Shown: positions 2 to 62,114 of the stretch, one piece after another
Layout: each line of letters starts with the position of its first letter
Numbering within the stretch: the stretch's first letter is position 1
Source: a virus
DNA: 64,000 nucleotides
Virus record (IMG/VR): IMGVR_UViG_3300045988_039373
Location: 1 to 64,000 of that record
Strand: one strand, 5' to 3'
The notes under the pieces: generated by a model
What the model saw: the letters and a program-made list of their open reading frames with translations, nothing else
What the model was told of the DNA's origin: nothing
Databases searched by the model: none
Translations under genes and position numbers: made by a program

Positions 2-11
2 TGCAAATATA
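2..11 (-). promoter_or_regulatory. Early-promoter box TATATTTGCA (minus-strand reading), copy 1 of 5. It contains the Bacteroidota -7 element TAnnTTTG.
   Basis: Plus strand reads tgcaaatata at 2-11. The same 10-mer occurs at 3138-3147, 4370-4379, 9588-9597 and, in plus-strand sense, at 33383-33392. This copy would drive a minus-strand gene lying left of the window. Confidence 0.5.
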
Positions 12-33
12 ATTCTTTCTTTTTAAATATGCA

Positions 34-3087: not shown

Positions 3088-3137
3088 AATGTCTATATTA
3101 AAATTGTTAATAAAATAAAGTTTATTTCTTTTCTCTA

Positions 3138-3147
3138 TGCAAATATA
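3138..3147 (-). promoter_or_regulatory. Early-promoter box TATATTTGCA, copy 2 of 5.
   Basis: tgcaaatata on the plus strand, 50 nt upstream of the ATG at 3087. The extended match TTATTCTTATATTTGCA is shared with the copy at 9588. Confidence 0.6.
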
Positions 3148-3202
3148 AGAATAATATATTTAATACAAAAATATTTCTATATTATTTTTCTATTTGCCCA
3201 GG

Positions 3203-4369: not shown

Positions 4370-4379
4370 TGCAAATATA
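4370..4379 (-). promoter_or_regulatory. Early-promoter box TATATTTGCA, copy 3 of 5.
   Basis: tgcaaatata on the plus strand, with the flank ttttctttaTGCAAATATA. The implied leader to the ATG at 4353 is very short. Confidence 0.55.
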
Positions 4380-4429
4380 CTAAAATTATTTTATATAAAA
4401 TATTCTTTTAATAAATACGGAGGTAAGTG

Positions 4430-7220: not shown

Positions 7221-7742
<522 letters not shown>

Positions 7743-8566: not shown

Positions 8567-8996
8567 TGAATTCCTTTTTTCCTTTAGACTTAAAGACTCG
8601 GTGCATTTGTACCATAAATCTTCTTCGTCGGTGTTTATCTATGTGATATTCATCGGGCATTATGAACTTCCTTGCTTTTACGAATTTACCCTTAAACCAG
8701 AATTTAGTACTACCCTTTTTAAGAAGTTTACCATTCATATCGGATAATTCTCTAATGCCTTGTTTTATAAGTTTCCTCCCAGATATTATATGGATATACT
8801 GAAGAACATCTACACCATAAAGATAAACTAAGGTAACCTTTACTTGATGTCTAGTAAAGTATGGTATACCGGTTAGATGTTTCCTATATAATTTCTTTTC
8901 AGTAACAATCTTATTGGTAGTATCTGGTCTCCAAGTCCATATATAATATCTATCTGGTCGTATGGGTCCATTGTTACTTTCCTTTAGCTTTACCAT
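8433..8996 (-). CDS. Basic hypothetical protein (187 aa).
   Basis: ORF track; ATG at 8994-8996. Confidence 0.6.
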   Translation of the reverse strand: MVKLKESNNGPIRPDRYYIWTWRPDTTNKIVTEKKLYRKHLTGIPYFTRHQVKVTLVYLYGVDVLQYIHIISGRKLIKQGIRELSDMNGKLLKKGSTKFWFKGKFVKARKFIMPDEYHIDKHRRRRFMVQMHRVFKSKGKKEFNERYSIKLYGQRQGISPKYTRQKRLQINLAILQDLQQAESRGEK

Positions 8997-9552
8997 TTAT
9001 ATTCCTCTTTGCCATTCTATACCAAAGATTGATAGATTTCTCATTTGCTTCGGGGAATTTCTTTTTCATTCTCCGAATAACTCTATCAAGTTCAAAACCT
9101 TTTGCAGTTAATTCGAATACATAAGATTTCTTTGTACCCTTGATAAGATTAAATTCATCCCTCTCTCTTGGTGGTTTCTTTTCTCGAGGTTTCTTTATTC
9201 CGGGAACTCGTTTTGTTCTCCTTTGCCCATTTTCCCCCTCTTCTCCGAGAAACCCAAGCCTTAGTCGAGAATTCCTTAATGGGTCATCTTTTGAATACCC
9301 AATAGTTTCCAATTGCTTATCCATCCAATCGTCATATTTATCAATTAACGATTTATCGGGCTTCTCTTCTGATACATTGATATAATGTAATAAGTCAAAT
9401 ACCCCAGCAGAACAAGCATCAGGGAAAGGCATCCCTAATATTATTGCCTTTCTCTTTAAATCCTTATAAGTCATGTTTCTCCCAGAAGCACCAAGGAAAT
9501 TTGATTTCTCCTTGGATGGAGCTTTCATGTCTTTTCTACTCTTTTTTGCCAT
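8974..9552 (-). CDS. Hypothetical basic protein (192 aa).
   Basis: ORF track; ATG at 9550-9552, 35 nt downstream of the promoter box. Confidence 0.7.
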   Translation of the reverse strand: MAKKSRKDMKAPSKEKSNFLGASGRNMTYKDLKRKAIILGMPFPDACSAGVFDLLHYINVSEEKPDKSLIDKYDDWMDKQLETIGYSKDDPLRNSRLRLGFLGEEGENGQRRTKRVPGIKKPREKKPPRERDEFNLIKGTKKSYVFELTAKGFELDRVIRRMKKKFPEANEKSINLWYRMAKRNINGKAKGK

Positions 9553-9587
9553 ATCATTAATATTTTAAAGTATTCATTTATTTTCTT

Positions 9588-9597
9588 TGCAAATATA
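9588..9597 (-). promoter_or_regulatory. Early-promoter box TATATTTGCA, copy 4 of 5.
   Basis: tgcaaatata on the plus strand. The 17-nt stretch tgcaaatataagaataa is identical to the copy at 3138. Confidence 0.6.
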
Positions 9598-9628
9598 AGA
9601 ATAAATAATTTAATCTTATCTTATTTCT

Positions 9629-10609
9629 CTATTTATTTTTATAAAAATCCGAGGTTTTTGCTCGGTTCGCAGCAGTGGATTTAGGTTTTTTAGGCTTTCT
9701 CTTGATATGTGTGTTATAAGCCATATCCAATTTCTTAATATTGAATTCTATGTTGTTCACTTGATTATAGTTTACTGCTCTTTCCACACAGCAACGGTAC
9801 TCTGGCCAGAATTTTTGTCCAAGCTTAACAGATTCGGTTTTAATCATGAACTTAGATACCATAAAACCAAAGGTATCAGCATCATCTTTAGTTTTAAATA
9901 CATACATGTAGAATCTACTAAATTCATCTACTACTTCATCCAAAGGTCTTACTGGTAACAATAGATAACCATCGGTATATAGGTCCTCAGATATTAAAGC
10001 TACCCAATACTTTTTTTTTCCTGGTTTTACTTTATACCTAAACCTTTCCTTGAGTTTATTGTGCATCCAATCCGGTACTCTATTAAGAAGATACTTGATA
10101 TATATCTTATCCTTCTTATTCGACCGCCTTTTAAATGCAGATGGCTGTTGTAGCATCCTTGGAAGTATTCTAAAGTTATTCCACCTATCAAATTCAAGAA
10201 TTAATCTTAGAGTGTCTATGTCCCATTCATCATCAGACTCCTTTAACCTCTTCATGTTTCTCTCTATATTTTTAGAGTTTACCTTTGGGAGTAATTGAGC
10301 TGAGTCTCCTGTGAATAAGCTTGCTTCTTTTCTTTTTAATCGTTTCTCTAAACATCCATCCATATAATCTTGGAAATTCCTCTCACAGGGGCAATCTGGT
10401 CGAAAAATAGAAGTGTGTTTCTCAAAAAAATCCGAGAATAGCCTAAAGAATTTCTCTGACCGTTCCCGGATTTCAAGATACTTGTAATGAGATAACTTTA
10501 AAATTTCACCAGCTTCCCATGAAGATTTACTTTCTGATAGTTGAAGGAATAATGATTGTTGTTCTTTATCAATTAAACAACTCCAGGCTTTTTGTTGAGC
10601 TTCGTTCAT
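9629..10609 (-). CDS. Hypothetical protein (326 aa) with a possible N-terminal sigma-region-4/LuxR-like HTH.
   Basis: QQSLFLQLSESKSSWEAGEILKLSHYKYLEIRERSEKF resembles an HTH by eye. It sits directly downstream of the NusG-like gene. Confidence 0.45.
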   Translation of the reverse strand: MNEAQQKAWSCLIDKEQQSLFLQLSESKSSWEAGEILKLSHYKYLEIRERSEKFFRLFSDFFEKHTSIFRPDCPCERNFQDYMDGCLEKRLKRKEASLFTGDSAQLLPKVNSKNIERNMKRLKESDDEWDIDTLRLILEFDRWNNFRILPRMLQQPSAFKRRSNKKDKIYIKYLLNRVPDWMHNKLKERFRYKVKPGKKKYWVALISEDLYTDGYLLLPVRPLDEVVDEFSRFYMYVFKTKDDADTFGFMVSKFMIKTESVKLGQKFWPEYRCCVERAVNYNQVNNIEFNIKKLDMAYNTHIKRKPKKPKSTAANRAKTSDFYKNK

Positions 10610-10613
10610 AATA

Positions 10614-11330
10614 TTAAATTCTCCTATATCTCATTATACTATCAATTGCTTCATTGGTTATCTGATTAGGGTCATATTCCCCAGAATTAGCATAAAGCTT
10701 ATCTGGGTCATGATTTAAATATACACTATAGATAACGTTGTCAAAAGGTAACCATACTTCCATTCTTCCCATTTCAGGGTATATAAGAACTTTTACTCTT
10801 TTACAAAGATGGTCAACCTCTAATACTGTAGCATCTACTCCCTCATAAGGATAACCCCGTAATACTAAGTAATCTCCAGGCTTTACATTGACTAAATCAT
10901 CTACTGAAAACTTCTTATTCTCTCTAGCAATACGTTTAAATCGCCTTACTTCTTTTCTACTACAAGTAGCCACTAAAGAGAAATCATCAAAGTCTTCTGC
11001 ATTGTCAATCCTTACCTTTTTCTTTCTTGGGTGCATTGTCTCGGTATTACGTAACCAAGTTCTGATACCAGATATATTCCTACGTAACTTATTAAGAAAG
11101 GGCCTTGAGAATGCTAATTTAGTGGGCATTCTCATAAAACCATAATTGAATAATACTGGTACTTCTTCGAATACCATCTTACCCTTTGTGGTTTTTCTTA
11201 ATACGTTTATCATAGGAATAATTGCCTTGATTTGGTCATACCCCTTTTCTTTGAGTTCTTTATTGATTTTATCACAGTACTTCCTTTCAAGGTAAAATAT
11301 ACAATATGAGTATGGGGTATGCTTCTTCAT
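10614..11330 (-). CDS. NusG/RfaH/UpxY-like transcription elongation (antitermination) factor.
   Basis: NGN-like N-terminus (YCIFYLERKYCDKINKELKE ... PVLFNYGFMRM). KOW-like C-terminus (VKPGDYLVLRGYPYEGVDATVLEVDHLCKRVKVLIYPEMGRMEVWLPFDNV) aligns with E. coli NusG [51 protein letters not shown], quoted from memory. Confidence 0.65.
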   Translation of the reverse strand: MKKHTPYSYCIFYLERKYCDKINKELKEKGYDQIKAIIPMINVLRKTTKGKMVFEEVPVLFNYGFMRMPTKLAFSRPFLNKLRRNISGIRTWLRNTETMHPRKKKVRIDNAEDFDDFSLVATCSRKEVRRFKRIARENKKFSVDDLVNVKPGDYLVLRGYPYEGVDATVLEVDHLCKRVKVLIYPEMGRMEVWLPFDNVIYSVYLNHDPDKLYANSGEYDPNQITNEAIDSIMRYRRI

Positions 11331-17358: not shown

Positions 17359-17394
17359 GAAGGTGATAACAGAACGAATCTAATTACCACCTTC
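17359..17394 (-). terminator. Candidate intrinsic terminator after the SSB-like gene.
   Basis: A 7-bp stem GAAGGTG (17359-17365) pairs with CACCTTC (17388-17394) around a 22-nt loop, between the stop at 17418 and the next start at 17336. Confidence 0.4.
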
Positions 17395-22564: not shown

Positions 22565-22580
22565 ATTTTAAAATAGAAAA

Positions 22581-22613
22581 AGGGACATACCCACCAGTAG
22601 TAGATACATCCCT
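22581..22613 (-). terminator. Intrinsic terminator between the ThyA-like gene and the DNA polymerase gene.
   Basis: The minus-sense RNA can pair AGGGAUGUAU with GUAUGUCCCU (10 bp including 3 G-U pairs), followed by TTTTTCTATTTT. Confidence 0.5.
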
Positions 22614-22618
22614 CATTA

Positions 22619-27214: not shown

Positions 27215-28702
27215 TTAACTCTTAATAAGGCTATGGTTAGGATGTTTCTTCCATAGCTTATCTAACAATATTACTTTCAATTCTTGTCTCTGATAATATT
27301 GCTTCCTATGCTTACCATGCCTATCTAAATAAGGGCCAGGATAATGAAGGTCATCCAGGTATACTTTCTTTTTCGATTTATCGGTTCTTACCAAACGACC
27401 AAGAAACTGAATAGATTTTTCCTGACTATCCATGCTTGCTGCATTAAGTAAATACCTAAGCTTAGGAAAGTTTTTACCTCGAGCAATGATTGTAGTTGAT
27501 ACCAAGATATCTATTTTGCCTTCCCTAAAATCCATCATTATTTGTTGTCTTAACTTAGAGGGAGTATTAACATGCACATAGGCAATATTATAGGCATCGC
27601 CCAGTTTCTTTTTAAAGAACTTATATAGATTTTCACAATGTGCAATATGCTTGCATACTACAAGAGCAGGATATCTACCTTGATTAATATTCCATCGTAA
27701 TCGATTATAAGCCATGGTCCACGCGGTATTATTTTCGGTAATAGAATCATCATATATCTCCTTATAGGATATACAATCAGATTCCCAATTACCATACCAA
27801 GGTTTACCGGGTACCATCTTTACGATAGTTTTAGTTGAGTAACCCTTCTTGATGGAATCCTTAAGTTTAAACTCAGCAATCACTTTACCAAAGAAACATT
27901 CTAGGTTCATATTCTTAACCCTATCCTTAGCAAGCTTACTCATATAAATCGTACCAGATAATCCTATACGAATTCTGGTATTAAATAACCGAGTGATTAC
28001 ATTCTGATATTGCTTACTACCTCCTTGGTCAGCCTCATCTATAAGTACCATATCTATTTGAGATAATTCCTTTTGATAGAATCTCATATTTCTCGAAATA
28101 GATTGAACCATACCTATAGTAAAGTTACTCCAGTTTAAAACCTTGCCTTGAACAAAAGTGATATCTTCTCCGGGAAGATATTGCTTAAATTCTTCTCTAG
28201 CTTGATTTAACCAATCCGAATCATTAGTTATTAGCAAAGTCTTTAACTGCTTCTTATAGGATAAATATAAAGACGACATGATAAGTGTTTTACCTGCATT
28301 AACAGTGTAATCTAATACGCCAATATGAAAAGGTGTATTCCCTATCTTATTATTGATAACTGCCTTAACAGCTTTCTCTTGCTCTGGTCTTAATTTATAT
28401 TTGCCTATATTCGTAACTACTTTACTGACTTTAGGTAAAGGTTGTCTCATATCTACAACTTTAGGTTTAATCCCCATCTCAATACACATATCGTATACTT
28501 TGGGAAGTAAACCTATTTTAAATTGCCCAGTCTTGGTGATGTAATGAATCTTACCGTCCCAATTCTGCATACCTCTTTGCCTTGTACGTAAGTAGAAAGC
28601 ATTTGGATGTCGAATAGCGAACTCATTATAAAGTTTTTGTGCGAACTTAAGAGGTAAGTCGAGTTCGCACATATTCCCATTCTGTATGATTATCCTACTC
28701 AT
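27215..28702 (-). CDS. Superfamily 2 DNA helicase (DEAD/UvsW-like).
   Basis: Walker A NAGKTLIM, DEAD box LIDEADQ, motif III LSGT, motif VI GRLVRT. Confidence 0.85.
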   Translation of the reverse strand: MSRIIIQNGNMCELDLPLKFAQKLYNEFAIRHPNAFYLRTRQRGMQNWDGKIHYITKTGQFKIGLLPKVYDMCIEMGIKPKVVDMRQPLPKVSKVVTNIGKYKLRPEQEKAVKAVINNKIGNTPFHIGVLDYTVNAGKTLIMSSLYLSYKKQLKTLLITNDSDWLNQAREEFKQYLPGEDITFVQGKVLNWSNFTIGMVQSISRNMRFYQKELSQIDMVLIDEADQGGSKQYQNVITRLFNTRIRIGLSGTIYMSKLAKDRVKNMNLECFFGKVIAEFKLKDSIKKGYSTKTIVKMVPGKPWYGNWESDCISYKEIYDDSITENNTAWTMAYNRLRWNINQGRYPALVVCKHIAHCENLYKFFKKKLGDAYNIAYVHVNTPSKLRQQIMMDFREGKIDILVSTTIIARGKNFPKLRYLLNAASMDSQEKSIQFLGRLVRTDKSKKKVYLDDLHYPGPYLDRHGKHRKQYYQRQELKVILLDKLWKKHPNHSLIKS

Positions 28703-29286
28703 TTGATAATTACCGTTACACCCTTAGTAGATTTATCCATACCCATTGCTTCCTTGAGAAGTTTAATATGATGCTCCTCATCCGCAATCAATTTCTCAAG
28801 GAAATAATTCACGTCATCGTAATCTGGGCGTTCTTCGTATTGAGCAATTGCTCTTTGAATTTTCTTGTAGTGACCAATAGTTTCTATCTCGGAATTCAAA
28901 GCAATCTTTAAAGCTTGTTCCCAAGTAGAACCAATCTCAATCGTAGGATTAATATTCATGGTAGAGTAATCCTCATAGGGATCTGCCTTTTGTAAAAAGT
29001 CCGATATCTTATCAAGGTGTCTCATCTCTACCAAACCAATACCCAACATCAATTCTGATATTTCTTCAAATCTAGAAGACTGTTGGGTATACATAATGAT
29101 GGCACTTAGTTCTGAGAACTTGGCATTCTTCCAAATCACATAGAACATATTAATTATCTCATCAGGCCATGGTTCGATATCCTTAAAATCTGGATAATCC
29201 ACGGATTGGTCTGAATACTTGAGGACATCTATAAAAGCATTAGCTGCATCCTCTACTCTGTTTCCGAAAAATTGTAAACCTTTCAT
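28699..29286 (-). CDS. Ferritin-like diiron-carboxylate protein (rubrerythrin/Mn-catalase-like fold; tentative).
   Basis: Two ExxH motifs (LVEMRHL, ADEEHHI) plus the partner glutamates FSELSAI and NSEIETIGHY. Confidence 0.5.
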   Translation of the reverse strand: MKGLQFFGNRVEDAANAFIDVLKYSDQSVDYPDFKDIEPWPDEIINMFYVIWKNAKFSELSAIIMYTQQSSRFEEISELMLGIGLVEMRHLDKISDFLQKADPYEDYSTMNINPTIEIGSTWEQALKIALNSEIETIGHYKKIQRAIAQYEERPDYDDVNYFLEKLIADEEHHIKLLKEAMGMDKSTKGVTVIIK

Positions 29287-33236: not shown

Positions 33237-33382
33237 ATCTATATTGCAATATTTATAAACTAATAGATTTTGATAGTACCGAGATAGTTCTGAGCATGTT
33301 GACAACTATCTAGAAACATACTAATCCACTACCTTAAGCTCAAGTATATTTAATATTATTATTTTATATAAGAAAAAATACT

Positions 33383-33392
33383 TATATTTGCA
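33383..33392 (+). promoter_or_regulatory. Early-promoter box TATATTTGCA, copy 5 of 5 and the only one in plus-strand sense.
   Basis: cttatatttgcataa, 20 nt upstream of the ATG at 33413, inside an A/T-rich divergent intergenic region. Confidence 0.6.
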
Positions 33393-33412: not shown

Positions 33413-34066
33413 ATGGGAAAAAGTAAAGGAAATAATGGCTCAGAGCTTCATAGATTAAAACCTATGCAGGAATATGATGAAGCTACATTCAACAGACTTT
33501 ATAAAGTTTGTAAGCCAGTAATCAGAAATCTTACCCGACAGATTGATTATAAAAGGTTTAATCTTACACCTGATATCATTCAGTCTTATTTCTGGGATAA
33601 GATGTTATTTGTTTTCAACAAATACTATGGTGAATGTACTGAAGAACATCTTAAAGCAAGAATCCTTGCATCACTTAGTACATTCAAGAATAAACTACTT
33701 CGTTCGGCATACGGAGAACAAGCAGAGTATAATCAAAATCTCTTTAAGCTTGATGATTTGTTTGATAATGACAAAGAATTAGAGGATGATAGTGAACAAG
33801 AGAAAGCTAAATCCGAAATGCTTGATATGATGTATAAGTATATGAAGGATAAACTTTCTCCCGATGCCCATCTCCTATTCGAGGTATTATTAACTCCCCC
33901 TCCTTTTATTAAAGAGAGGCTTGGAGATAGTACTCGAATTACCAACATAATGCTTATAGAGTTTTTCGAAATGCCTAAGACTAATGATTCTATGAGATAT
34001 ATCTCAGAACTTAGACAAGATATCCAATACTGGGAAGATAGAGCTAAGGAAGAACTTAAGTATTAA
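33413..34066 (+). CDS. Putative ECF-like sigma-70 family factor; the only plus-strand gene in the window.
   Basis: Region-2-like ATFNRLYKVCKPVIRNL ... PDIIQSYFWDKMLFVFNKY ... KARILASLSTFKNKLLRS. Region-4-like C-terminus LSPDAHLLFEVLL ... ISELRQDIQYWEDRAKEEL. By-eye match only. Confidence 0.5.
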   Translation: MGKSKGNNGSELHRLKPMQEYDEATFNRLYKVCKPVIRNLTRQIDYKRFNLTPDIIQSYFWDKMLFVFNKYYGECTEEHLKARILASLSTFKNKLLRSAYGEQAEYNQNLFKLDDLFDNDKELEDDSEQEKAKSEMLDMMYKYMKDKLSPDAHLLFEVLLTPPPFIKERLGDSTRITNIMLIEFFEMPKTNDSMRYISELRQDIQYWEDRAKEELKY

Positions 34067-34078
34067 CACAAAAGAAAA

Positions 34079-34098
34079 GGGACGTTTCCCAACGTCCC
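34079..34098. terminator. Bidirectional intrinsic terminator between convergent genes.
   Basis: GGGACGTT tccc AACGTCCC (8-bp GC-rich stem). In minus sense it is followed by TTTTCTTTTG. Confidence 0.7.
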
Positions 34099-34198
34099 TT
34101 CCCAACAGATTTTCAAAATCAACTATGCAAACACGATTTGTAAAGTGTCAAATACTAATAACTAATTCAATCTATATTATGAAGTGGAATGAAGTTAC

Positions 34199-47049: not shown

Positions 47050-47078
47050 AGCCGAAATAATCTAAGGTTATCTCGGCT
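47050..47078 (-). terminator. Intrinsic terminator or attenuator just upstream of the tape measure gene.
   Basis: AGCCGAAATAA (47050-47060) pairs with TTATCTCGGCT (47068-47078), giving 10 of 11 bp. In minus sense it is followed by TTTTACGTC. Confidence 0.5.
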
Positions 47079-47923: not shown

Positions 47924-47959
47924 AGGGGTGAGACATCCTATCTCAGGAATCCCACCCCT
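47924..47959 (-). terminator. Intrinsic terminator after the tail tube gene.
   Basis: AGGGGTG (47924-47930) pairs with CACCCCT (47953-47959), with further imperfect pairing inside. In minus sense it is followed by TTTCTTGTTGTT. Confidence 0.5.
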
Positions 47960-53263: not shown

Positions 53264-53296
53264 AAAAGGAGTACACCGGTTAGATGCACTCCTTTT
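53264..53296 (-). terminator. Intrinsic terminator after the Gly-zipper/Cys-rich gene.
   Basis: AAAAGGAGT (53264-53272) pairs with ACTCCTTTT (53288-53296), a 9-bp stem. In minus sense it is followed by TTCGTTTT. Confidence 0.65.
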
Positions 53297-55949: not shown

Positions 55950-56315
55950 TTAATCTACATCTTTAAGATTTCTGAGTTCTGAGATTTCAGCCTTCAAAGC
56001 CTTAATCTCTTCGTAAAGAAGTTTAATACCTTCGATTGCCAGAGTAGACATCTTATGGTACTTAACTTGTTTTACCAATACATATTCTTCACCGTCGATA
56101 ACAACCGTTTCGAATTCCTCAGGATTAGGAACTGAATCCTTAGTTCTTGGGTCTTCTTCCACATAATGGTTAAACCCTGCTGCTTCCAAACCTTGTGCAA
56201 TGGTACCTTCATCTTCCTTACCATCCATGATAAAGGATTCTGTAGGTATACTGCAAATCTGTTCCAAAGTATGGGTTAATGGTTTGATGTTAGATTTCAA
56301 TCTTTCATCGGAAGA
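55950..56315 (-). other. Peptidase S74-type intramolecular chaperone / autoproteolysis domain of the fibre.
   Basis: GFWKESSDERLKSNIKPLTHTLEQICSIP, followed by a terminal helix LLYEEIKALKAEISELRNL. The Ser-Asp codons are at 56307-56315. Confidence 0.7.
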
Positions 56316-59300
56316 CTCTTTCCAGAAACCGGAAGGAGCAGTAGTCTTAGCAAATACTACCTGGTCAGTAGTTGCCAATCCCAATTGAGCTCTAGTTACT
56401 GTATGAGGATTATCCTTTCTACCTGCATGACTATTGATAGAAGTCTGAGCAGTAGTACCTGCAGCCTTAGCATCAGCAATAGCAGTAGCTTGAGCAGTAG
56501 ATACTGGCTTATCAGCATCAGAAGTATTATTAACATTACCCAATCCAACCTGAGTTTTAGTAACTGTATGAGGATTAGATTTATTGGCAATGTGATTATT
56601 TACCTTAGTTTCTAAGGCAGTTACATCTGAACCAGTATCGGCAATCAAATCGTCAACGTAAGTTTTCAATTCTGTACGAAGAGCATTGATGGCATTAGTT
56701 CTATTGGTAATCTCATTTGCCAACCCCTGTACGGTATTATCCAAGTTAGTCTTATCTGCTGCAGTCATTACACCTGCAGTAGTCTTAGTTGCTGCAAGTA
56801 TATCTCTAATTAAATCTGTAGCACCTTCATAAGTCTTACCCTCTGCACTCTTAGTTTTATTATTAAGAGTAGCTCTTACATTAGTTGAATTATGGGTAAG
56901 AGTGAATCCAGTAAGAATAATTCCTGGAAGAGAACTATTAAAGGTATCATGAGCATTATCTTTTGCAATACGGGCCTCTTGTTCAGCTTCAATAGCATCT
57001 GGTAAGGTTTGATTAAGCTTTATTACACTATCGGCATCCATCAGACCAGCTTCTTGAGTAGTGGCTGGGGTTAGAGGGATTACCATCCCATCGGGTTTAT
57101 CAATGTAATGCCCTTGACCATCCGTAGCAGAATAGTTACATAAGATAATAACATTACGCTTATTTTTGTTAGCTATTGAAACCTTACTAATTAAATTTTT
57201 AGGCATGCTAGATACCACATCCTCAAGATGCTTACCTCTACTACCTTCGAAAGCAGTACCTGCGATTTCCCCAATGATAAGAGACGAAGTATTACTGTCT
57301 ACGAATTTAGTACCTGACCAACGGAATTGGTATGGAGGTTCACCATCGGCAACATTTATATAAATCTTACCAGATTCTCCAACTACGGGAGTTTGGTGAC
57401 CTGCATCCGTATACAATTGAACATTAGTAAGACCTCCAGTGGGGCTTACATCATAGGTAGCATATACTTCAAGTACATCATCTACATATGAAGGCAAATG
57501 GTTAGCAGGTACTAACCCCTTCCCATCCAATGGAGCAAAGCCATCAGCCTTACCCTTAGTTGCTACAAAGGCATCATGTTTAGCTTCTAGAGTATTAATA
57601 TTATTCTGTAACTTAGTTTCAAGGGTAGTATCTGCCGCAGTTCTATCGGCAATCTCCTTATCAATCCTTGCACCCAATGCAGTATCAGCAGAAGTACGAG
57701 CAGTTGCTTCATCGTTTACAGCTTTAGTAAACTTGGTATCTAAAGCAGTATCTGCAGCTTTTCTATCAGCTACTTCTTGAGCAAGAGCGGCTTCTGATTT
57801 ACCGTCCAAAGCTTCGATAGCATCTTTACGGTCCTGAACCTCTTGAGCAATAGCATTGGGTAATGTCTCATCCAGATTAACTTTATCTTGGGCGGTCATT
57901 ACACCAGCTTTCTCTGTAGTAGCTGCTGGGATATAAGTAGTCTTATAATCTTCAGGCTCATGAGTATAAATACCCTCTTCTTTTTTAGAAGAGAAATTAT
58001 GAGTTAAAGTAACATGACTGCTTTGTTGACCTACCTCAACTGGTTTATCACCAGATAAGATAATAATATTATCTGGTATAGAATCAAACAGCTTCTTATC
58101 TGCTGCAGTTTGTACACCAGCTTTCTCTGTAGTAGAGGCAGGCAATGTAATAGGATTCTGTTCTACTGTACCATCTTCAACTACGGTCTTAGTAGCAGCT
58201 ATGCCAACAGTAGTTTCATTGGGAGTTACTGCACCAAGGGCAAAGTTAGCAGTAGAGATTCTATCCAATTCTACCTTATCTTTCGCAGTCATCGTACCAG
58301 CCTTAGTAGCCGATACCTGAGGCAAATCGAAAGTTTCGGTAGTATCAGCATTCAAACCGTTATCCTTAGTTACGGTTACTGTTACCTTATTAGCATCAGA
58401 AGCTGCAGAGAGATCAGTTAAAGAATTTGGGTCTAACCCATCTAACTTAACCTTGTCTGCTGCAGACATAACTCCAGCAAGAGTTTGAGTTACCGGAAGT
58501 AAATTCTTGGTAGCTTCTACTTCTTCACCATATTGGTTATTTGCCTTATCCTTGGTTGAAGTCTTTACTTTGAAAGAAAGCTGAGTATCTGTTCGGGTTA
58601 CAGTACTAACATCGGTAACCATGGTGTCTGGCAAAGCATCGGAAGTACCTTCTTCAGCTTCCAATCTTTCTTCATGGTCATCGGTAATGTTAGTGAATTT
58701 ATTATCTAAGGCAGTATCAGCATCGGTTCTGTCCTGAATTTCTTTATCGATACGTTTACCCAAAGCTGTATCGGCAGCAATACGGGCAGCTTCTTCTGCA
58801 TCGATGTTATCCTGGAGAACTTTATCTGCGGCCTTTCTTTCCTCTCTCTCTGTATTAAGGTCAGAAGTATTCTGATCAATCTTTGCTTCCAACCGAATAT
58901 CTTCAGCTTTACGAGCAGCAATTTCGTTATTTAACAGATCCGTAATGGCCGTATAATTACCATTGATATTATCCTGAATACCCTGGATTAATTCCAGGTT
59001 ACGTTGGATATTAGCAGTATTCTGAGTTACCAGAGCATTAGTAGCATTCAGGGAAGTTAACAACTCTGTACGAGTTTCACTTACAAAAGTTCTCAGCTCA
59101 TTTACCGTAGTAGTAAGAGTATTACTCAGGTTAGTGAATGATTGTTGTAAAGTATTATCTCCCTGTTCTCGTAAGTTCTTTTCGGCTTCAAGCTTATTCT
59201 CCAACTCTGTAAGCTTAGCAGTCATAGTTGCTGCAAAGTTGGGGTCATCACCGAGAGCCTTAGCAATCTCTGCCAAAGTGTCCAATACTTCAGGGGCTGA

Positions 59301-62114
59301 ACCAATAATCTTTTGGATTGCAGCCTCTACTTGTTCTGCATTCTGAAAGTCAGAATCGTTTAATAACTGAGAAACCTTAGTGATATAGTTTGCATGTTCT
59401 TCGATGCCATCCAACTTGGCATACAGCAAGTCAGTGAAATCATTTGAAGAAAGTACCTTGCCATCTACCTTATCTACCTTCTTATCGTCCATTGCCTGGT
59501 CTGCAGCAATTCTATCTGCTTTCTCCTGAGCAACAGCATTACTGATAAGAGTATCTTGATTAGCTCTTTCAGTTGATTCTTTATCGATATTGGTTTGAAG
59601 TAAAGTATCTCCAGCTAAGCGGTCATTCTTTTCGGTAAGGATATCCTTATTAATACCAGCCATATCATCCTTGTGATTCTGAAGGTTGGTATCAATCTTG
59701 GCCTCAAGAGAAGTCTCTTTGGCAATTGCTCGGTCTTTCTCTGCATTAATAGCAGTAGTGTTGGCATTTACCTTTGCTTTTAGTTCATTCATAGCATCGG
59801 TATTACCTGCCTCTAGAGAATCAATACGAACTCCCAAAGCATTATCACCAGCAATACGATTTTCCTTTTCTTGTTCAAGCTTAGTGTTAATATTACCTAC
59901 TTCGGATTCCAAAGCTTGTTTGGTATTATCCAACTTAGCAGTAAACTCAGTACTCAAAGCTTTATCAGCTGCAGTACGGTCTGCTACTTCTTTATCTAAG
60001 TTAACCTGGAGAACTTGGTCGGCAGCCTTTCTTTCTACACTCTCAGTATTAAGGTCGATATTGAGAGTATCGATACGAGAACTCAAGGCACTATCAGCAT
60101 TAGTACGATCAATGATTTCTTCGTTAATCATATCCTTAACTTCCTTGTAGTTATCACCTACAGTCTTAGTTAAGTTTGTGATTGCCTCTGAATTTCTTTC
60201 AATACTATGTTGGTTAGTGGCAATAGCAGTAGTATTTGCATTTACCTGCTCAGTAAGCTCATTACGCAATGTATTGATAGACTCTTGCATACTCAATGCC
60301 AAGTCTGAAATACGTTGGTTAACGTTAGCCAGACTTTGAGTATAGGCTTCATCTGCAGTCTTTCTTTCGGCAATCTCTTTATCCAAGCTAGATTGAATTG
60401 CGGCATCTGCATCTTTACGGTCTTGGATTTCCTTGTTAAGATTGTCTTTTACAACTCCAAGAGCAGCATCACCAATAGCAGACTTATTGTCTACATATTC
60501 TTTCAGTTTAGTTTCAAGAGCTGTATCAGCATCCTTACGAGCTTGAACTTCAGCAGCTACCTCAGCACTGTTTGCCTCATCACCCGCAATTCGGTCTTCG
60601 ATTTCTTGGTTAACCTGTTCTGTGATTGCAGCCAATTTCTTGGTAATGGTAGCAGCAAAGTTGGGGTCATTTCCAAGGGCATCAGCAATTTCCTTAAGAG
60701 TATCAAGTACTTCTGGAGCAGAACCAATAATCTTTTGGATAGCTGCATTTACCTCTTCCTCAGTTTGGAAACCAGAATCGTTGATAAGCTGAGAAAGATG
60801 CGTAATATAATTTGCCTTTTCCTCAATTCCATCAAGTTTAGCTTTGAGTATATCGGTAAAGTCATTCTTAGTCAAAGAATAGCCTTCACGTTTATCTACT
60901 TTCTTAGTATCAAGATCTTTATCACCTTTTTCTCTAGCAGCAGCCTCGGCAGCAATAGCATTAAGCAATTGCTCCTTGTCTTCTACACCCTGCTCTTTTA
61001 CATCTTCGATTTTGTGTTCAAGAACTAAATCCTGAGCAGCACGAGTAGTAGCCTCTGAATCGATATTGTTCTGTAATACTTGGTCTGCAACAGTACGGGC
61101 CTGAACTTCTTTATCAATATTACCTTGAAGAGCATTATCTGCATTGGTACGGTCTGTTACCTCTTTAGAGATTTCATTGTGAAGAACTTGGTCCTCAGAA
61201 TGACGGTCTACCTTCTCTTGGTCAATTTTACCTTGAAGAGCTAAAGTATCTGCCTGGCGATTAGTGATTTCTTCGTTAATCTTAGAATCCAGTACAGTAT
61301 CTGCGTTAGTACGATTTGCAGTTTCTTCTGCAATCTTTGACTCAAGGGATGCCTTATCATTGATATGGAGAGTTTTAAGGTCATTTACACTTTCCTTAAT
61401 CTCATTATCGGCAGCAATACGTTCATCTTTTTCCTTTTGGATAAGATCCTTGAGTTCCTTCTCAAGTTCACCATTACCTTGATTTACCTTATCTTCAAGG
61501 TCTTTGATATCTTCAGCATTCTTATCTACCTTCTTCTCAACTCGGTCGATTTCAGCTTTTAAGTCTGCCTTAACGGTATCAATCTTCTTATTGATTTGGT
61601 CTAACCCATATTCTAGGTTATCCTGAACTGCAGCTACTGCAGCACCCAGAGCAGCTTCGGCTTCCTTAGCACGATTAACCTCTTCGGTTAAAGCAGTACG
61701 AAGGTCGGTTAATTTATTAGTGATAGTAGTTGCAAAGTTGGGGTCATTGCCCAATGCTTCTGCCAACTCTTTAAGAGTATCAAGGGCATCATCAGCACCA
61801 TCAACCAAATCACTAATCATCTGTTTAACTTCTTCCTCAGTTTGATATTTCAAATCATTCTCAAGCTGAGAAACTTTAGTGATATAATTTGCATGTTCTT
61901 CGATGCCATCAAGTTTAGCCTTCAACTCATCGGTAAAATCATTTTTCGATAAGTCGTATCCTTCTTTCTTATCTACCTTATTCTTGATAGAAAGTACGAA
62001 GGCCCAGAACTCATTTATAGTTCCCCCAAAGCCAGCACGAACAAAGTCATCATAGTAACCCTGTAACAACCGCTGGTCAATCTCTTCGCAGGTGTAATAT
62101 TTACTTACATACAT
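55950..62114 (-). CDS. Giant fibre protein (2054 aa): coiled-coil repeats, AGxMxAxDK repeats and a C-terminal S74 intramolecular chaperone domain.
   Basis: Three LSxNDFTDxLKAKLDGIEE modules, an ExxxRxxADxxL periodicity of about 17-18 aa, six AG(V/T/L)M(S/T/D)AxDK motifs, and SSDERLKSNIKPL near the C-terminus. Confidence 0.85.
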   Translation of the reverse strand: MYVSKYYTCEEIDQRLLQGYYDDFVRAGFGGTINEFWAFVLSIKNKVDKKEGYDLSKNDFTDELKAKLDGIEEHANYITKVSQLENDLKYQTEEEVKQMISDLVDGADDALDTLKELAEALGNDPNFATTITNKLTDLRTALTEEVNRAKEAEAALGAAVAAVQDNLEYGLDQINKKIDTVKADLKAEIDRVEKKVDKNAEDIKDLEDKVNQGNGELEKELKDLIQKEKDERIAADNEIKESVNDLKTLHINDKASLESKIAEETANRTNADTVLDSKINEEITNRQADTLALQGKIDQEKVDRHSEDQVLHNEISKEVTDRTNADNALQGNIDKEVQARTVADQVLQNNIDSEATTRAAQDLVLEHKIEDVKEQGVEDKEQLLNAIAAEAAAREKGDKDLDTKKVDKREGYSLTKNDFTDILKAKLDGIEEKANYITHLSQLINDSGFQTEEEVNAAIQKIIGSAPEVLDTLKEIADALGNDPNFAATITKKLAAITEQVNQEIEDRIAGDEANSAEVAAEVQARKDADTALETKLKEYVDNKSAIGDAALGVVKDNLNKEIQDRKDADAAIQSSLDKEIAERKTADEAYTQSLANVNQRISDLALSMQESINTLRNELTEQVNANTTAIATNQHSIERNSEAITNLTKTVGDNYKEVKDMINEEIIDRTNADSALSSRIDTLNIDLNTESVERKAADQVLQVNLDKEVADRTAADKALSTEFTAKLDNTKQALESEVGNINTKLEQEKENRIAGDNALGVRIDSLEAGNTDAMNELKAKVNANTTAINAEKDRAIAKETSLEAKIDTNLQNHKDDMAGINKDILTEKNDRLAGDTLLQTNIDKESTERANQDTLISNAVAQEKADRIAADQAMDDKKVDKVDGKVLSSNDFTDLLYAKLDGIEEHANYITKVSQLLNDSDFQNAEQVEAAIQKIIGSAPEVLDTLAEIAKALGDDPNFAATMTAKLTELENKLEAEKNLREQGDNTLQQSFTNLSNTLTTTVNELRTFVSETRTELLTSLNATNALVTQNTANIQRNLELIQGIQDNINGNYTAITDLLNNEIAARKAEDIRLEAKIDQNTSDLNTEREERKAADKVLQDNIDAEEAARIAADTALGKRIDKEIQDRTDADTALDNKFTNITDDHEERLEAEEGTSDALPDTMVTDVSTVTRTDTQLSFKVKTSTKDKANNQYGEEVEATKNLLPVTQTLAGVMSAADKVKLDGLDPNSLTDLSAASDANKVTVTVTKDNGLNADTTETFDLPQVSATKAGTMTAKDKVELDRISTANFALGAVTPNETTVGIAATKTVVEDGTVEQNPITLPASTTEKAGVQTAADKKLFDSIPDNIIILSGDKPVEVGQQSSHVTLTHNFSSKKEEGIYTHEPEDYKTTYIPAATTEKAGVMTAQDKVNLDETLPNAIAQEVQDRKDAIEALDGKSEAALAQEVADRKAADTALDTKFTKAVNDEATARTSADTALGARIDKEIADRTAADTTLETKLQNNINTLEAKHDAFVATKGKADGFAPLDGKGLVPANHLPSYVDDVLEVYATYDVSPTGGLTNVQLYTDAGHQTPVVGESGKIYINVADGEPPYQFRWSGTKFVDSNTSSLIIGEIAGTAFEGSRGKHLEDVVSSMPKNLISKVSIANKNKRNVIILCNYSATDGQGHYIDKPDGMVIPLTPATTQEAGLMDADSVIKLNQTLPDAIEAEQEARIAKDNAHDTFNSSLPGIILTGFTLTHNSTNVRATLNNKTKSAEGKTYEGATDLIRDILAATKTTAGVMTAADKTNLDNTVQGLANEITNRTNAINALRTELKTYVDDLIADTGSDVTALETKVNNHIANKSNPHTVTKTQVGLGNVNNTSDADKPVSTAQATAIADAKAAGTTAQTSINSHAGRKDNPHTVTRAQLGLATTDQVVFAKTTAPSGFWKESSDERLKSNIKPLTHTLEQICSIPTESFIMDGKEDEGTIAQGLEAAGFNHYVEEDPRTKDSVPNPEEFETVVIDGEEYVLVKQVKYHKMSTLAIEGIKLLYEEIKALKAEISELRNLKDVD
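56745..58495 (-). repeat. Region of the fibre gene carrying six dispersed AGxMxAxDKxxLD motif units.
   Basis: LAGVMSAADKVKLDGL, KAGTMTAKDKVELDRI, KAGVQTAADKKLFDSI, KAGVMTAQDKVNLDET, EAGLMDADSVIKLNQT and TAGVMTAADKTNLDNT. Approximate bounds. Confidence 0.55.
59202..59474 (-). repeat. Fibre module copy C (about 270 bp direct repeat).
   Basis: DKVDGKVLSSNDFTDLLYAKLDGIEEHANYITKVSQLLNDSDFQNAEQVEAAIQKIIGSAPEVLDTLAEIAKALGDDPNFAATMTAKLTEL. It shares the 20-nt run gaaccaataatcttttggat with copy B. Confidence 0.8.
60625..60896 (-). repeat. Fibre module copy B (about 270 bp direct repeat).
   Basis: DKREGYSLTKNDFTDILKAKLDGIEEKANYITHLSQLINDSGFQTEEEVNAAIQKIIGSAPEVLDTLKEIADALGNDPNFAATITKKLAAI. Confidence 0.8.
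61701..61970 (-). repeat. Fibre module copy A (about 270 bp direct repeat, more divergent).
   Basis: KKEGYDLSKNDFTDELKAKLDGIEEHANYITKVSQLENDLKYQTEEEVKQMISDLVDGADDALDTLKELAEALGNDPNFATTITNKLTDL. Confidence 0.75.

What the first reader, a model, noticed from the sequence alone, without database searches (positions are those of the whole stretch)
9629..11330. Phage-encoded NusG/RfaH/UpxY-like elongation factor with an adjacent HTH protein
CDS 10614-11330 aligns along its length with NusG, with an NGN-like N-terminus and a clear KOW motif. Specialised NusG paralogs (RfaH, and Bacteroides UpxY) confer operon-specific processive antitermination. This phage has many good intrinsic terminator hairpins inside what look like long co-oriented operons (for example 47050-47078, 47924-47959, 53264-53296 and 22581-22613). 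A phage-specific antiterminator would therefore be a plausible temporal switch. The next gene (9629-10609) has a possible sigma-region-4/LuxR-type HTH and could be a partner or recruitment factor. I could not identify an ops-like recruitment site.
Basis: partly seen in the sequence, partly recalled or inferred. Interest (0 to 1): 0.6.

Follow-up and report, generated by a model that had tools for sequence, protein, structure and literature searches.

The report
Phage NusG-like factor with conserved partner

Summary
ORF 10614-11330 (minus strand, 238 aa) is predicted to fold as an NGN domain plus a KOW barrel. All 29 PDB fold matches with E<=1e-3 are NusG, RfaH or Spt5. Family members weakly hit the UpxY, NusG, RfaH, LoaP and Spt5 models, with UpxY best, but the window protein passes no curated cut-off. 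It belongs to a separate phage clade (196 clusters at 50% identity) with an insertion in the NGN domain and a conserved 38-residue tail. The Phe that RfaH needs for RNA polymerase binding is invariant. RfaH's ops-contact residues are not conserved. ORF 9629-10609 (326 aa) lies directly downstream in all 20 related loci examined. Only its first ~60 residues resemble sigma region 4, and that support is weak. The phage fits the published "Flandersviridae" description. Host-type promoters occur only in the unannotated early locus that starts right after the pair. The 24-kb replication block and the structural block have none, yet both contain strong terminators that abut essential genes. A processive antiterminator acting on host polymerase is therefore the best reading, but it is untested. 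No recruitment site was found. I rate this a new variant of a known kind.

The parts
10614..11330 (-). Gene for the 238-aa phage NusG-like protein (NGN + KOW + C-terminal tail)
   Evidence: ORF; structure model and Foldseek hits exclusively to NusG/RfaH/Spt5; family HMM hits to UpxY/NusG/RfaH/LoaP/Spt5
10911..11330 (-). NGN-like domain (residues 1-140), including the lineage-wide core IP.V..L.K..KGK..F..VPLLFNYGF.K.P. Y63 and F65 are invariant and align with RfaH Y54 and F56
   Evidence: the role of RfaH F56 is from PMC7593976
10977..11045 (-). Insertion in the NGN domain (residues ~96-118, basic then acidic: RKKKVRIDNAEDFDDFS). It has low model confidence, is conserved in the gut clade, and varies in length across the lineage
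10731..10886 (-). KOW beta-barrel (residues 149-200), motif G-D-Y-x-V-L-x-G-Y-P-[YF]-E-G
10617..10730 (-). C-terminal extension (residues 201-238) with no counterpart in NusG or RfaH. Y201, S202, Y204, D208 and T225 are invariant in the gut clade. It is predicted disordered, then a terminal helix
9629..10609 (-). Gene for the 326-aa conserved partner protein (uncharacterised family)
   Evidence: ORF; 850 homologues, none annotated; immediately downstream of the NusG-like gene in 20/20 loci
10418..10609 (-). N-terminal four-helix sigma-region-4-like / HTH domain of the partner (residues 1-64)
   Evidence: fold; weak Pfam Sigma70_r4/HTH_38; lineage-wide conservation
10106..10195 (-). Near-invariant basic central motif of the partner, FDRWNN.RILP...Q.PSAFKRR.K (residues 139-168). 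Function unknown
9588..9598 (-). First early-type host promoter -7 box (TTATATTTGCA, Bacteroidota TAnnTTTG type), 31 nt after the partner's stop codon. It marks the end of the operon that holds the pair
   Evidence: an equivalent box follows the partner gene in 13/18 related loci
22580..22614 (-). Strong intrinsic-terminator-like hairpin (-20.6 kcal/mol) whose T-tract ends 15 nt before the PolA start codon. Candidate target for read-through (inferred)
17359..17394 (-). Terminator-like hairpin between the SSB-like and RecA-like genes, about 20 nt before the next ATG. Candidate target (inferred)
   Evidence: gene identities by synteny with L001
53263..53297 (-). Strong terminator-like hairpin inside the structural block, 27 nt before the next ORF. 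Candidate target (inferred)
47924..47959 (-). Terminator-like hairpin (-25.2 kcal/mol) downstream of the sheath gene and the 154-aa ORF that follows it. Candidate target (inferred)
47050..47078 (-). Terminator-like hairpin upstream of the tape-measure gene. Candidate target (inferred)
34074..34103 (-). Strong terminator-like hairpin at the end of the structural block

Best explanation
The 238-aa protein is a phage-specific paralog of NusG. The proposed mechanism is as follows. Its NGN domain binds the beta-prime clamp helices of the host (Bacteroidota) RNA polymerase in elongation complexes on phage DNA and takes the place of host NusG. This makes the polymerase pause- and termination-resistant, so that it can complete the phage's two very long, promoter-poor, terminator-studded operon blocks: replication (~24 kb) and structural (more than 30 kb). 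That role parallels what RfaH, UpxY, LoaP and TaA do for long cellular operons. The 326-aa protein encoded 4 nt downstream is its obligate partner. Through its sigma-4-like N-domain and/or its invariant basic motif, the partner most likely supplies targeting (loading at a phage-specific DNA or RNA site, or on the beta flap) or controls the factor's activity. Shown here: the fold and superfamily, conservation of the RNAP-contact motif, the strict gene pairing, the promoter and terminator layout, and the absence of a detected phage RNA polymerase. Inferred: RNAP binding, antitermination, and the partner's role. My estimates: NusG-superfamily fold ~0.9; binds host RNAP ~0.7; net effect is read-through or antitermination ~0.45-0.5.
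For: Fold: every PDB fold match with E<=1e-3 is NusG, RfaH or Spt5 and both domains are covered. Sequence: family members hit UpxY (15/26, best 1e-10), NusG, RfaH, Spt5, LoaP and Pfam NusG-NGN; hhalign gives NusG 89% and RfaH 78%. RNAP-contact motif: the family's most conserved block LFNYGF aligns with RfaH LFPNYLF, and invariant F65 aligns with RfaH F56. That residue is required for RNAP binding and is Leu in NusG (PMC7593976). Rho loop: NusG I164-F165-G166 aligns with P-E-M, so Rho recruitment is unlikely. Need for read-through: at least 11 hairpins of -15 to -25 kcal/mol followed by T-tracts lie on the coding strand in intergenic gaps, and several end 14-27 nt from the next ATG, including PolA at 15 nt. 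Promoter layout: TATATTTGCA-type host promoters occur only in the early locus (positions 9590, 4372, 3140 and 4, plus seven more beyond the window) and before one plus-strand gene. Polymerase: no phage RNA polymerase or sigma factor was detected among the ORFs scanned. Pairing: the partner is adjacent in 20/20 loci at ~25-38% identity. Precedent: specialised NusG paralogs activate long operons, and UpxY has a dedicated partner gene (PMC7819879, PMC11685472).
Against: There is no biochemical or expression evidence. The window protein itself passes no curated NusG, RfaH or UpxY threshold. No recruitment element was found: known ops types are at chance level, no shared motif appears in the leaders of promoter-less blocks, and Rfam gives no hit. 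The gene lies at the distal end of the replication block, downstream of terminators it would need to suppress, so a feed-forward or basal read-through step must be assumed. Leaky terminators that set gene dosage are common in phage operons and need no factor. Some terminators (for example the one at 17.4 kb) are absent in distant relatives that still keep the pair. The whole module is syntenic, so adjacency alone does not prove a physical partnership. The sigma-4-like call for the partner is statistically weak.
Confidence: 0.5

Rival explanations
1. The pair is a split, sigma-like or Q-like initiation or loading module. The NGN domain occupies the beta-prime clamp helices (the sigma region 2 site, as T4 gp55 does). 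The partner's sigma-4-like domain occupies the beta flap or a -35-like DNA element (as sigma region 4 or T4 gp33 do). Together they redirect host core polymerase to phage middle and late promoters that lack host sigma-A boxes.
For: The replication and structural blocks have no TATATTTGCA-type promoter on the coding strand. The partner's only recognisable domain resembles sigma region 4. The pair is strictly co-inherited. No other sigma factor or RNAP was found. NGN and sigma region 2 share the clamp-helix site (my own background knowledge).
Against: No NusG-family protein is known to act in promoter recognition. No conserved alternative promoter motif was found upstream of middle or late genes. 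The partner has no sigma-2-like part and its sigma-4 similarity is weak. A possible weak -7 box (TACTTTTG) precedes the structural block, so host sigma-A plus an activator would suffice.
Confidence: 0.1
2. The protein is aimed at the host rather than at phage operons. As a high-affinity NusG mimic it displaces host NusG and/or the host's UpxY proteins. This would disturb Rho-dependent termination or capsule-operon expression (host shut-off, or a change in surface polysaccharide). The partner would act like UpxZ or shield the factor from host UpxZ.
For: The best HMM similarity is to UpxY, the Bacteroidota capsule-operon NusG paralog. The RfaH-type Phe suggests tight RNAP binding. UpxZ proteins inhibit non-cognate UpxYs by binding their NGN domain (PMC11685472). 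The Rho-binding loop is not conserved.
Against: The gene sits in the replication block rather than among the early host-takeover genes driven by host-type promoters. The partner shows no similarity to UpxZ or to any curated family. The UpxY ops hairpin consensus and RfaH's DNA-contact residues are not matched. The lineage extends to non-gut environmental phages, whose hosts may lack Upx systems.
Confidence: 0.12
3. The NGN/KOW fold has been recruited to a task other than transcription, such as a DNA replication or recombination accessory or a ribosome-binding role, and the adjacency to the 326-aa gene reflects only whole-module synteny.
For: The gene follows SbcD, SbcC and a PDDEXK/RusA-like nuclease in a recombination cluster whose order is conserved as a whole. 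KOW barrels also occur in ribosomal proteins (L24 and L26 appear among the weak hits).
Against: To my knowledge the two-domain NGN+KOW arrangement is specific to NusG/Spt5, and all strong structural matches are to those proteins. The RNAP-contact motif is the best-conserved part of the family.
Confidence: 0.08

Closest known systems
UpxY (with UpxZ): locus-specific NusG paralogs of Bacteroides capsule operons
   Same: NGN+KOW architecture. It is the best-matching curated model for the phage lineage (NF033644: 15/26 members, best E 1e-10). The host phylum is Bacteroidota. A dedicated second gene lies immediately downstream. The presumed role is to carry polymerase through a long operon.
   Different: The window protein does not reach the UpxY model at all. 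It is the penultimate gene of a replication block, not the first gene behind a leader. No YGCGNAGCR ops hairpin is present. The partner is twice the size I recall for UpxZ, is unrelated to it by Pfam and NCBIfam, and begins with a sigma-4-like domain. The phage protein also has an NGN insertion and a 38-residue tail.
RfaH (Proteobacteria)
   Same: The NGN domain superposes well (TMt 0.74, 2.9 A). The Phe equivalent to RfaH F56 and the N-Y of the PNY motif are conserved. The NusG Rho-binding loop is absent. Both are associated with long, horizontally mobile operons.
   Different: The ops-contact positions K10, H20 and R23 align with E15, E25 and E28. No ops element is present. The CTD is predicted as a beta-barrel with no sign of an alpha-hairpin autoinhibited state. 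The HMM score is 12.9 bits against a cut-off of 124.
Phage antitermination systems (lambda N with NusABEG, lambda Q, HK022 put, P23-45 gp39, Xp10 p7)
   Same: The proposed outcome is the same: a phage-encoded device that makes host RNAP resistant to terminators so that long phage operons are completed (PMC7819879, PMC3351154, PMC4513864).
   Different: There is no homology. Those systems use small unrelated proteins or RNAs and borrow the host's NusG, whereas here the phage brings its own NusG paralog. No nut-, qut- or put-like element was found.
Other phage-borne NusG/RfaH-like ORFs known only from annotation (PHROG 6386 'transcription antiterminator'; BFVD entries A0A6J5MAV8 'RfaH' and A0A6J5PZH6 'NusG')
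   Same: Predicted NGN+KOW proteins in tailed-phage genomes. JGI pipelines already label some members of this very family 'NusG'.
   Different: They are distant (PHROG E 0.005; BFVD 12-18% identity). None was found to be experimentally studied in the searchable literature. The conserved partner and the genome-layout argument are specific to this lineage.
T4 gp55/gp33 late-transcription factors
   Same: A functional analogy for the rival reading: two small phage proteins that occupy the clamp-helix and beta-flap sites of host core RNAP (my own background knowledge).
   Different: No sequence or fold relation was detected, and no late-promoter consensus was found here.

Membership tests
NusG/Spt5 superfamily | N-terminal NGN fold | tested here: met
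   AF2 model residues 1-95 have high confidence. Foldseek gives RfaH NGN 8pen_P TMt 0.74 at 2.9 A, and full-length NusG hits down to E 4e-8.
NusG/Spt5 superfamily | C-terminal KOW beta-barrel | tested here: met
   Profile hits to Spt5 and NusG KOW at residues 146-200. Foldseek gives 2mi6 TMt 0.76 at 1.3 A.
NusG/Spt5 superfamily | Passes curated sequence models (Pfam PF02357 NusG, PF00467 KOW; TIGR00922) | tested here: not met
   The window protein has no Pfam NusG or KOW hit. Only sub-threshold hits occur in other family members.
NusG/Spt5 superfamily | Conserved hydrophobic RNAP (beta-prime clamp-helix) contact motif | tested here: met
   P58, N62, Y63 and F65 align with RfaH P49, N53, Y54 and F56. 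Y63 and F65 are invariant lineage-wide. The role of F56 is from PMC7593976.
NusG/Spt5 superfamily | Physically binds elongating RNA polymerase | not testable with these tools
   This needs binding or in-vitro transcription assays, or a complex prediction.
RfaH | ops-DNA-contact residues, and a GGCGGTAGCGTG-type ops in target leaders | tested here: not met
   K10, H20 and R23 align with E15, E25 and E28. GCGGTAGC with up to 1 mismatch gives 13 hits against 9.6 expected, and none is a perfect match.
RfaH | Autoinhibited all-alpha CTD that refolds to a beta-barrel | tested here: inconclusive
   AF2 predicts only the beta-barrel, at pLDDT ~70-80. A single prediction cannot exclude fold switching.
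RfaH | Curated HMM cut-off (NF006534) | tested here: not met
   12.9 bits against a cut-off of 124.
UpxY | Curated HMM NF033644 | tested here: not met
   The window protein has no hit at E<=1. Other lineage members reach 1e-10, and this is the best-matching model for the lineage.
UpxY | First gene of its target operon, behind a leader with an opsX pause site (ntDNA hairpin YGCGNAGCR) | tested here: not met
   The gene is second-to-last in the replication block. There is one YGCGNAGCR match in 64 kb, on the opposite strand inside an ORF, against 0.53 expected.
UpxY | Followed by a UpxZ-family antagonist | tested here: not met
   A conserved downstream gene exists, but none of 30 members matches a UpxZ model or any other consistent family in Pfam or NCBIfam.
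LoaP | Curated HMM NF033641, and a leader RNA hairpin for recruitment | tested here: not met
   Only 5-6 family members give sub-threshold hits. No Rfam element is present in the window.
Sigma-70 family (for the 326-aa partner) | Region 4 helix-turn-helix domain | tested here: inconclusive
   Foldseek hits of residues ~1-60 are dominated by sigma region 4 domains (TMt 0.65-0.80), but E is 0.45-2. Pfam Sigma70_r4 gives E 0.03-0.07 in 2/10. hhalign against RpoE and RpoD region 4 is not significant.
Sigma-70 family (for the 326-aa partner) | Region 2 domain N-terminal to region 4 | tested here: not met
   The sigma-4-like domain is at the N-terminus. Residues 65-326 have no structural or sequence match.
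'Flandersviridae' (the phage as a whole) | ~85-kb colinear genome: contractile-tail structural block with BACON or Ig domains, then DnaB/DnaG/PolA, then ~20 kb of unannotated ORFs; Bacteroides or Parabacteroides hosts | tested here: met
   Near-identical IMG/VR genomes of 84-88 kb. Sheath, baseplate, tape measure and BACON. DnaB, DnaG and PolA. An unannotated locus with Bacteroidota promoters. The published description is in PMC8008677.
'Flandersviridae' (the phage as a whole) | Placement in the TerL and PolA phylogeny | not tested
   No reference sequences of the named genomes were at hand.

The most novel reading that the evidence does not exclude
The NusG-like protein and its partner act together as a two-piece, phage-encoded specificity module for host core RNA polymerase. 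The NGN domain sits on the beta-prime clamp helices where sigma region 2 normally binds, and the partner's sigma-4-like domain sits on the beta flap or a promoter-proximal DNA element. This would load a termination-resistant polymerase at phage middle and late transcription units that have no host-type promoter. A NusG-family protein would then have been co-opted into promoter or loading-site selection, which has no precedent.
Probability: 0.1. Interest if true: 0.9.

Novelty: new variant of a known kind. Interest (0 to 1): 0.58.

Why it matters
All specialised NusG paralogs studied so far (RfaH, UpxY, LoaP, TaA, ActX) are cellular or plasmid-borne. Classical phage antitermination systems instead borrow the host's NusG. 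Here a whole phage lineage carries its own NusG paralog together with an obligatory unknown partner. One member is among the most frequently assembled phages of the human gut. This adds a new route to polymerase reprogramming. It also gives a first concrete handle on how Bacteroides phages outside the crAss group time their gene expression, which is essentially unstudied. The paper that proposed this phage family left this part of the genome unannotated. [quoted passage not shown]

Tried and rejected
1. Single-sequence searches of the 238-aa protein were uninformative. Pfam gave only Pam3_gp32 at E 0.03, and PDB phmmer gave spurious beta-lactamase hits. Profiles and structure prediction were needed.
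2. Known recruitment sites were not found. The UpxY opsX hairpin YGCGNAGCR and the RfaH ops core are both at chance level.
3. De novo motif search found little. 8-mer enrichment in non-coding versus coding sequence recovers only the host-type promoter box. A second AT-rich string, TTATATAAAATAAT, is not above chance (6 found, 5.65 expected). A shared 9-mer search among the leaders of promoter-less blocks found nothing.
4. Rfam gave no match in the window.
5. Host identification from isolate and MAG genomes failed. The only hits were mis-binned phage contigs and one 598-bp stray contig.
6. Single distant homologues found nothing as queries for IMG/VR, and alignment A3 was too diverse to seed a scan. 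Alignment A4 worked.
7. The sigma-4 assignment of the partner could not be made significant by sequence. The partner shows no UpxZ, LuxR/GerE or sigma hits.
8. I considered that the phage might encode its own RNA polymerase or sigma factor. None was detected among the ORFs scanned.
9. The nr label 'DNA-directed RNA polymerase subunit alpha' on homologues is not supported by any result here. I could not trace its origin.
Full report
**What is there.** The window is almost entirely coded on the minus strand. ORF 10614-11330 (238 aa) and ORF 9629-10609 (326 aa) are consecutive minus-strand genes. Three nucleotides separate the upstream PDDEXK/RusA-like nuclease gene from the first ORF, and four nucleotides separate the two ORFs from each other. 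Upstream lie SbcC-like and SbcD-like genes.

**The 238-aa protein is a NusG-superfamily protein.**
- Single-sequence searches are almost silent. There is no Pfam NusG or KOW hit, and only PHROG 6386 'transcription antiterminator' at E 0.005.
- The protein has 284 homologues at 90% clustering, on contigs of up to ~93 kb (most of the long ones 70-93 kb) from gut metagenomes. JGI labels a few of them 'NusG'.
- An exhaustive profile search finds 196 clusters at 50% identity. All full-length members are ~210-260 aa, and the search does not run into cellular NusG.
- An AlphaFold2 model built on a 30-sequence alignment (mean pLDDT 69.8) has a confident N-terminal alpha/beta domain and a C-terminal beta-barrel.
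- All 29 PDB fold matches with E<=1e-3 are NusG, RfaH or Spt5, and both domains are covered. The per-domain fits are good: RfaH NGN TMt 0.74 at 2.9 A, and NusG KOW TMt 0.76 at 1.3 A.
- A family profile hits Spt5 and NusG KOW sequences in the PDB.
- Family members give sub-threshold hits to UpxY, NusG, RfaH, LoaP, Spt5 and Pfam NusG-NGN. UpxY is the best across the lineage: 15 of 26 members, best E 1e-10.
- hhalign of the broad family profile against E. coli NusG and RfaH gives 89% and 78% probability.

**How it differs from known paralogs.**
- Relative to NusG and RfaH there is a ~20-residue insertion in the NGN domain. In the gut clade it reads RKKKVRIDNAEDFDDFS. Its length varies across the lineage.
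- There is a conserved 38-residue C-terminal tail that NusG and RfaH lack.
- The family's most conserved block, VPLLFNYGF, aligns with RfaH PLFPNYLF. Invariant F65 aligns with RfaH F56. Wang et al. describe F56 as required for RNAP binding and as Leu in NusG (PMC7593976).
- The NusG loop I164-F165-G166, which contacts Rho, aligns with P-E-M.
- RfaH's DNA-contact positions are not conserved.
- The protein fails the curated cut-offs of NusG, RfaH and UpxY. I therefore place it in the superfamily but not in any named subfamily.

**The partner.**
- The 326-aa protein has 850 unannotated homologues and no consistent Pfam, NCBIfam or PDB-sequence match.
- Its model (pLDDT 79.9) is mostly helical.
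- Fold search matches only the first ~60 residues. Those matches are dominated by sigma region 4 domains (TMt 0.65-0.80), but global E-values are weak. Sequence support is marginal.
- Across the lineage three blocks are conserved: this N-domain, a near-invariant basic motif FDRWNN.RILP...Q.PSAFKRR.K, and a C-terminal GQ.FWP..R motif.
- In 19 distant IMG/VR loci from other environments, and in one 59%-identical gut relative, the partner gene lies immediately downstream of the NusG-like gene. That is 20 of 20 loci.
- The whole module (SSB, RecA, exonuclease, SbcD, SbcC, PDDEXK, NusG-like, partner, 192-aa protein) is syntenic. Adjacency is therefore strong evidence of partnership but not proof.

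**The phage and its transcription layout.**
- The window encodes a contractile-tail structural block: sheath, tape measure, baseplate, a 2054-aa fibre and a BACON-domain protein.
- That block is followed by a replication and nucleotide-metabolism block: DnaB, HNH, DnaG, a helicase, a ferritin-like protein, dUTPase, thymidylate synthase, PolA, SSB, RecA and SbcCD.
- Then comes a locus of unannotated small ORFs.
- Near-identical genomes in IMG/VR are 84-88 kb.
- This matches the published description of the proposed 'Flandersviridae', which infect Bacteroides and Parabacteroides (PMC8008677). That paper contains none of the terms NusG, antitermin* or sigma.
- The motif TTATATTTGCA fits the Bacteroidota sigma-A -7 consensus TAnnTTTG (the consensus is from my own background knowledge). 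Exact copies on the coding strand occur only in the unannotated locus, at 9588, 3138 and 2, with a one-mismatch copy at 4370. One further exact copy drives the single plus-strand gene at 33.4 kb.
- Seven more copies, with -33 TTTG elements, lie in the continuation of that locus outside the window.
- No such promoter lies in the replication block (33.3 to 9.6 kb) or in the structural block.
- The pair forms the last two genes of the replication block. The first early-type promoter starts 31 nt after the partner's stop codon, and this arrangement recurs in 13 of 18 related loci.
- No phage RNA polymerase or sigma factor was detected.

**Terminators.**
- In total at least 11 hairpins of -15 to -25 kcal/mol followed by T-tracts lie on the coding strand in intergenic gaps.
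- Several end 14-27 nt before the next start codon. Examples are 15 nt for PolA and about 20 nt for the RecA-like gene. That leaves no room for a promoter, so these genes must be expressed by read-through.
- Terminator-like sites are over-represented mainly in the first 20 kb (27 found against 11.5 +/- 3.8 expected). Enrichment is modest elsewhere.

**Most likely mechanism.** The evidence points to a phage-specific NusG paralog that replaces host NusG on Bacteroidota RNA polymerase while it transcribes phage DNA. The paralog would render the polymerase processive and termination-resistant across two long, promoter-poor, terminator-containing blocks. This is the role specialised NusG paralogs play for long cellular operons (PMC7819879, PMC7593976). 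The partner would provide targeting or control, by loose analogy with the UpxY-UpxZ pair (PMC11685472). Fold, motif conservation, pairing and layout are shown here. RNAP binding, antitermination and the partner's role are inferred.

**Weak points.**
- No recruitment site was found.
- The gene lies downstream of the terminators it would act on.
- Leaky terminators need no factor.
- Some terminators are missing in distant relatives that still keep the pair.

**Rivals.**
- A split sigma-like or loading module (NGN at the sigma-2 site, partner at the sigma-4 site).
- A host-directed NusG or UpxY mimic.
- A non-transcriptional use of the fold.

None of these is excluded. Each has less support than the main reading.

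**Novelty.** Phage ORFs labelled NusG or RfaH exist in automatic annotation and in PHROGs and BFVD. I found no paper that describes or tests a phage-encoded NusG paralog, and the NusG reviews list only cellular and plasmid examples. This clade's insertion, tail, obligatory partner and genomic position make it a new variant of a known kind.

Noticed in passing
window 9588-9598, 4370-4380, 3138-3148, 2-12 (minus); 33382-33392 (plus); L271 10991-18690: A family of near-identical Bacteroidota-type promoters (-33 TTTG, ~19 nt, TATATTTGCA) with similar leaders (83 nt at 72% identity between 3107-3189 and 9557-9639). They are confined to the unannotated ~20-kb locus, which therefore looks like an early region made of many short host-sigma-A transcription units.
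   Followed up: partly
L271 19556-19880 (contig IMGVR_UViG_3300045988_014485, about 8.9 kb beyond window position 1): A terminator hairpin followed by ~300 nt of non-coding DNA, with two imperfect ~40-nt direct repeats (CATTTAGTACCA...GCTTTCGCTATAAGAGG) and a CA-rich tract. It lies between the end of the early locus and a 314-aa ORF. It could be an origin, a packaging site or a regulatory region.
   Followed up: no
window 33413-34066 (plus) and L187 1-375 (reverse strand): Each of the two long blocks is preceded by a single opposite-strand gene. A 217-aa protein with no family hit and a strong early-type promoter lies before the replication block. A CxxC...CxxC zinc-ribbon-like protein lies before the structural block. 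Both are candidates for block-specific regulators.
   Followed up: partly
window 7221-7742 (minus): A 173-aa early-locus protein with extreme acidic runs (14 consecutive Asp and long Glu tracts). It could be a DNA mimic or an anti-restriction protein.
   Followed up: no
window 8974-9552 (minus): A 192-aa basic protein with no family hit is conserved across the whole lineage as the first gene after the pair. Variable insertions lie between it and the partner gene in some relatives.
   Followed up: partly
window 55950-62114 (minus): A 2054-aa tail-fibre-like protein built from internal repeats (about 54-nt units and 1.1-kb spaced copies). The neighbouring 616-aa protein carries a BACON domain.
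   Followed up: no
window 28699-29286 (minus): A ferritin/rubrerythrin-like gene in the replication block. This is consistent with the iron-sequestering enzymes reported for gut phages in PMC8008677.
   Followed up: no
homologue P0007 and BFVD entry A0A8S5LRJ5: Public records name close homologues of the NusG-like protein 'DNA-directed RNA polymerase subunit alpha'. Nothing found here supports that label.
   Followed up: partly
L165-L167: Copies of this phage are binned into MAGs labelled Collinsella and Romboutsia, and a 598-bp fragment sits in a Streptomyces tendae assembly. Given the Bacteroidota promoter signals, these are most likely binning or contamination artefacts rather than hosts.
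   Followed up: no
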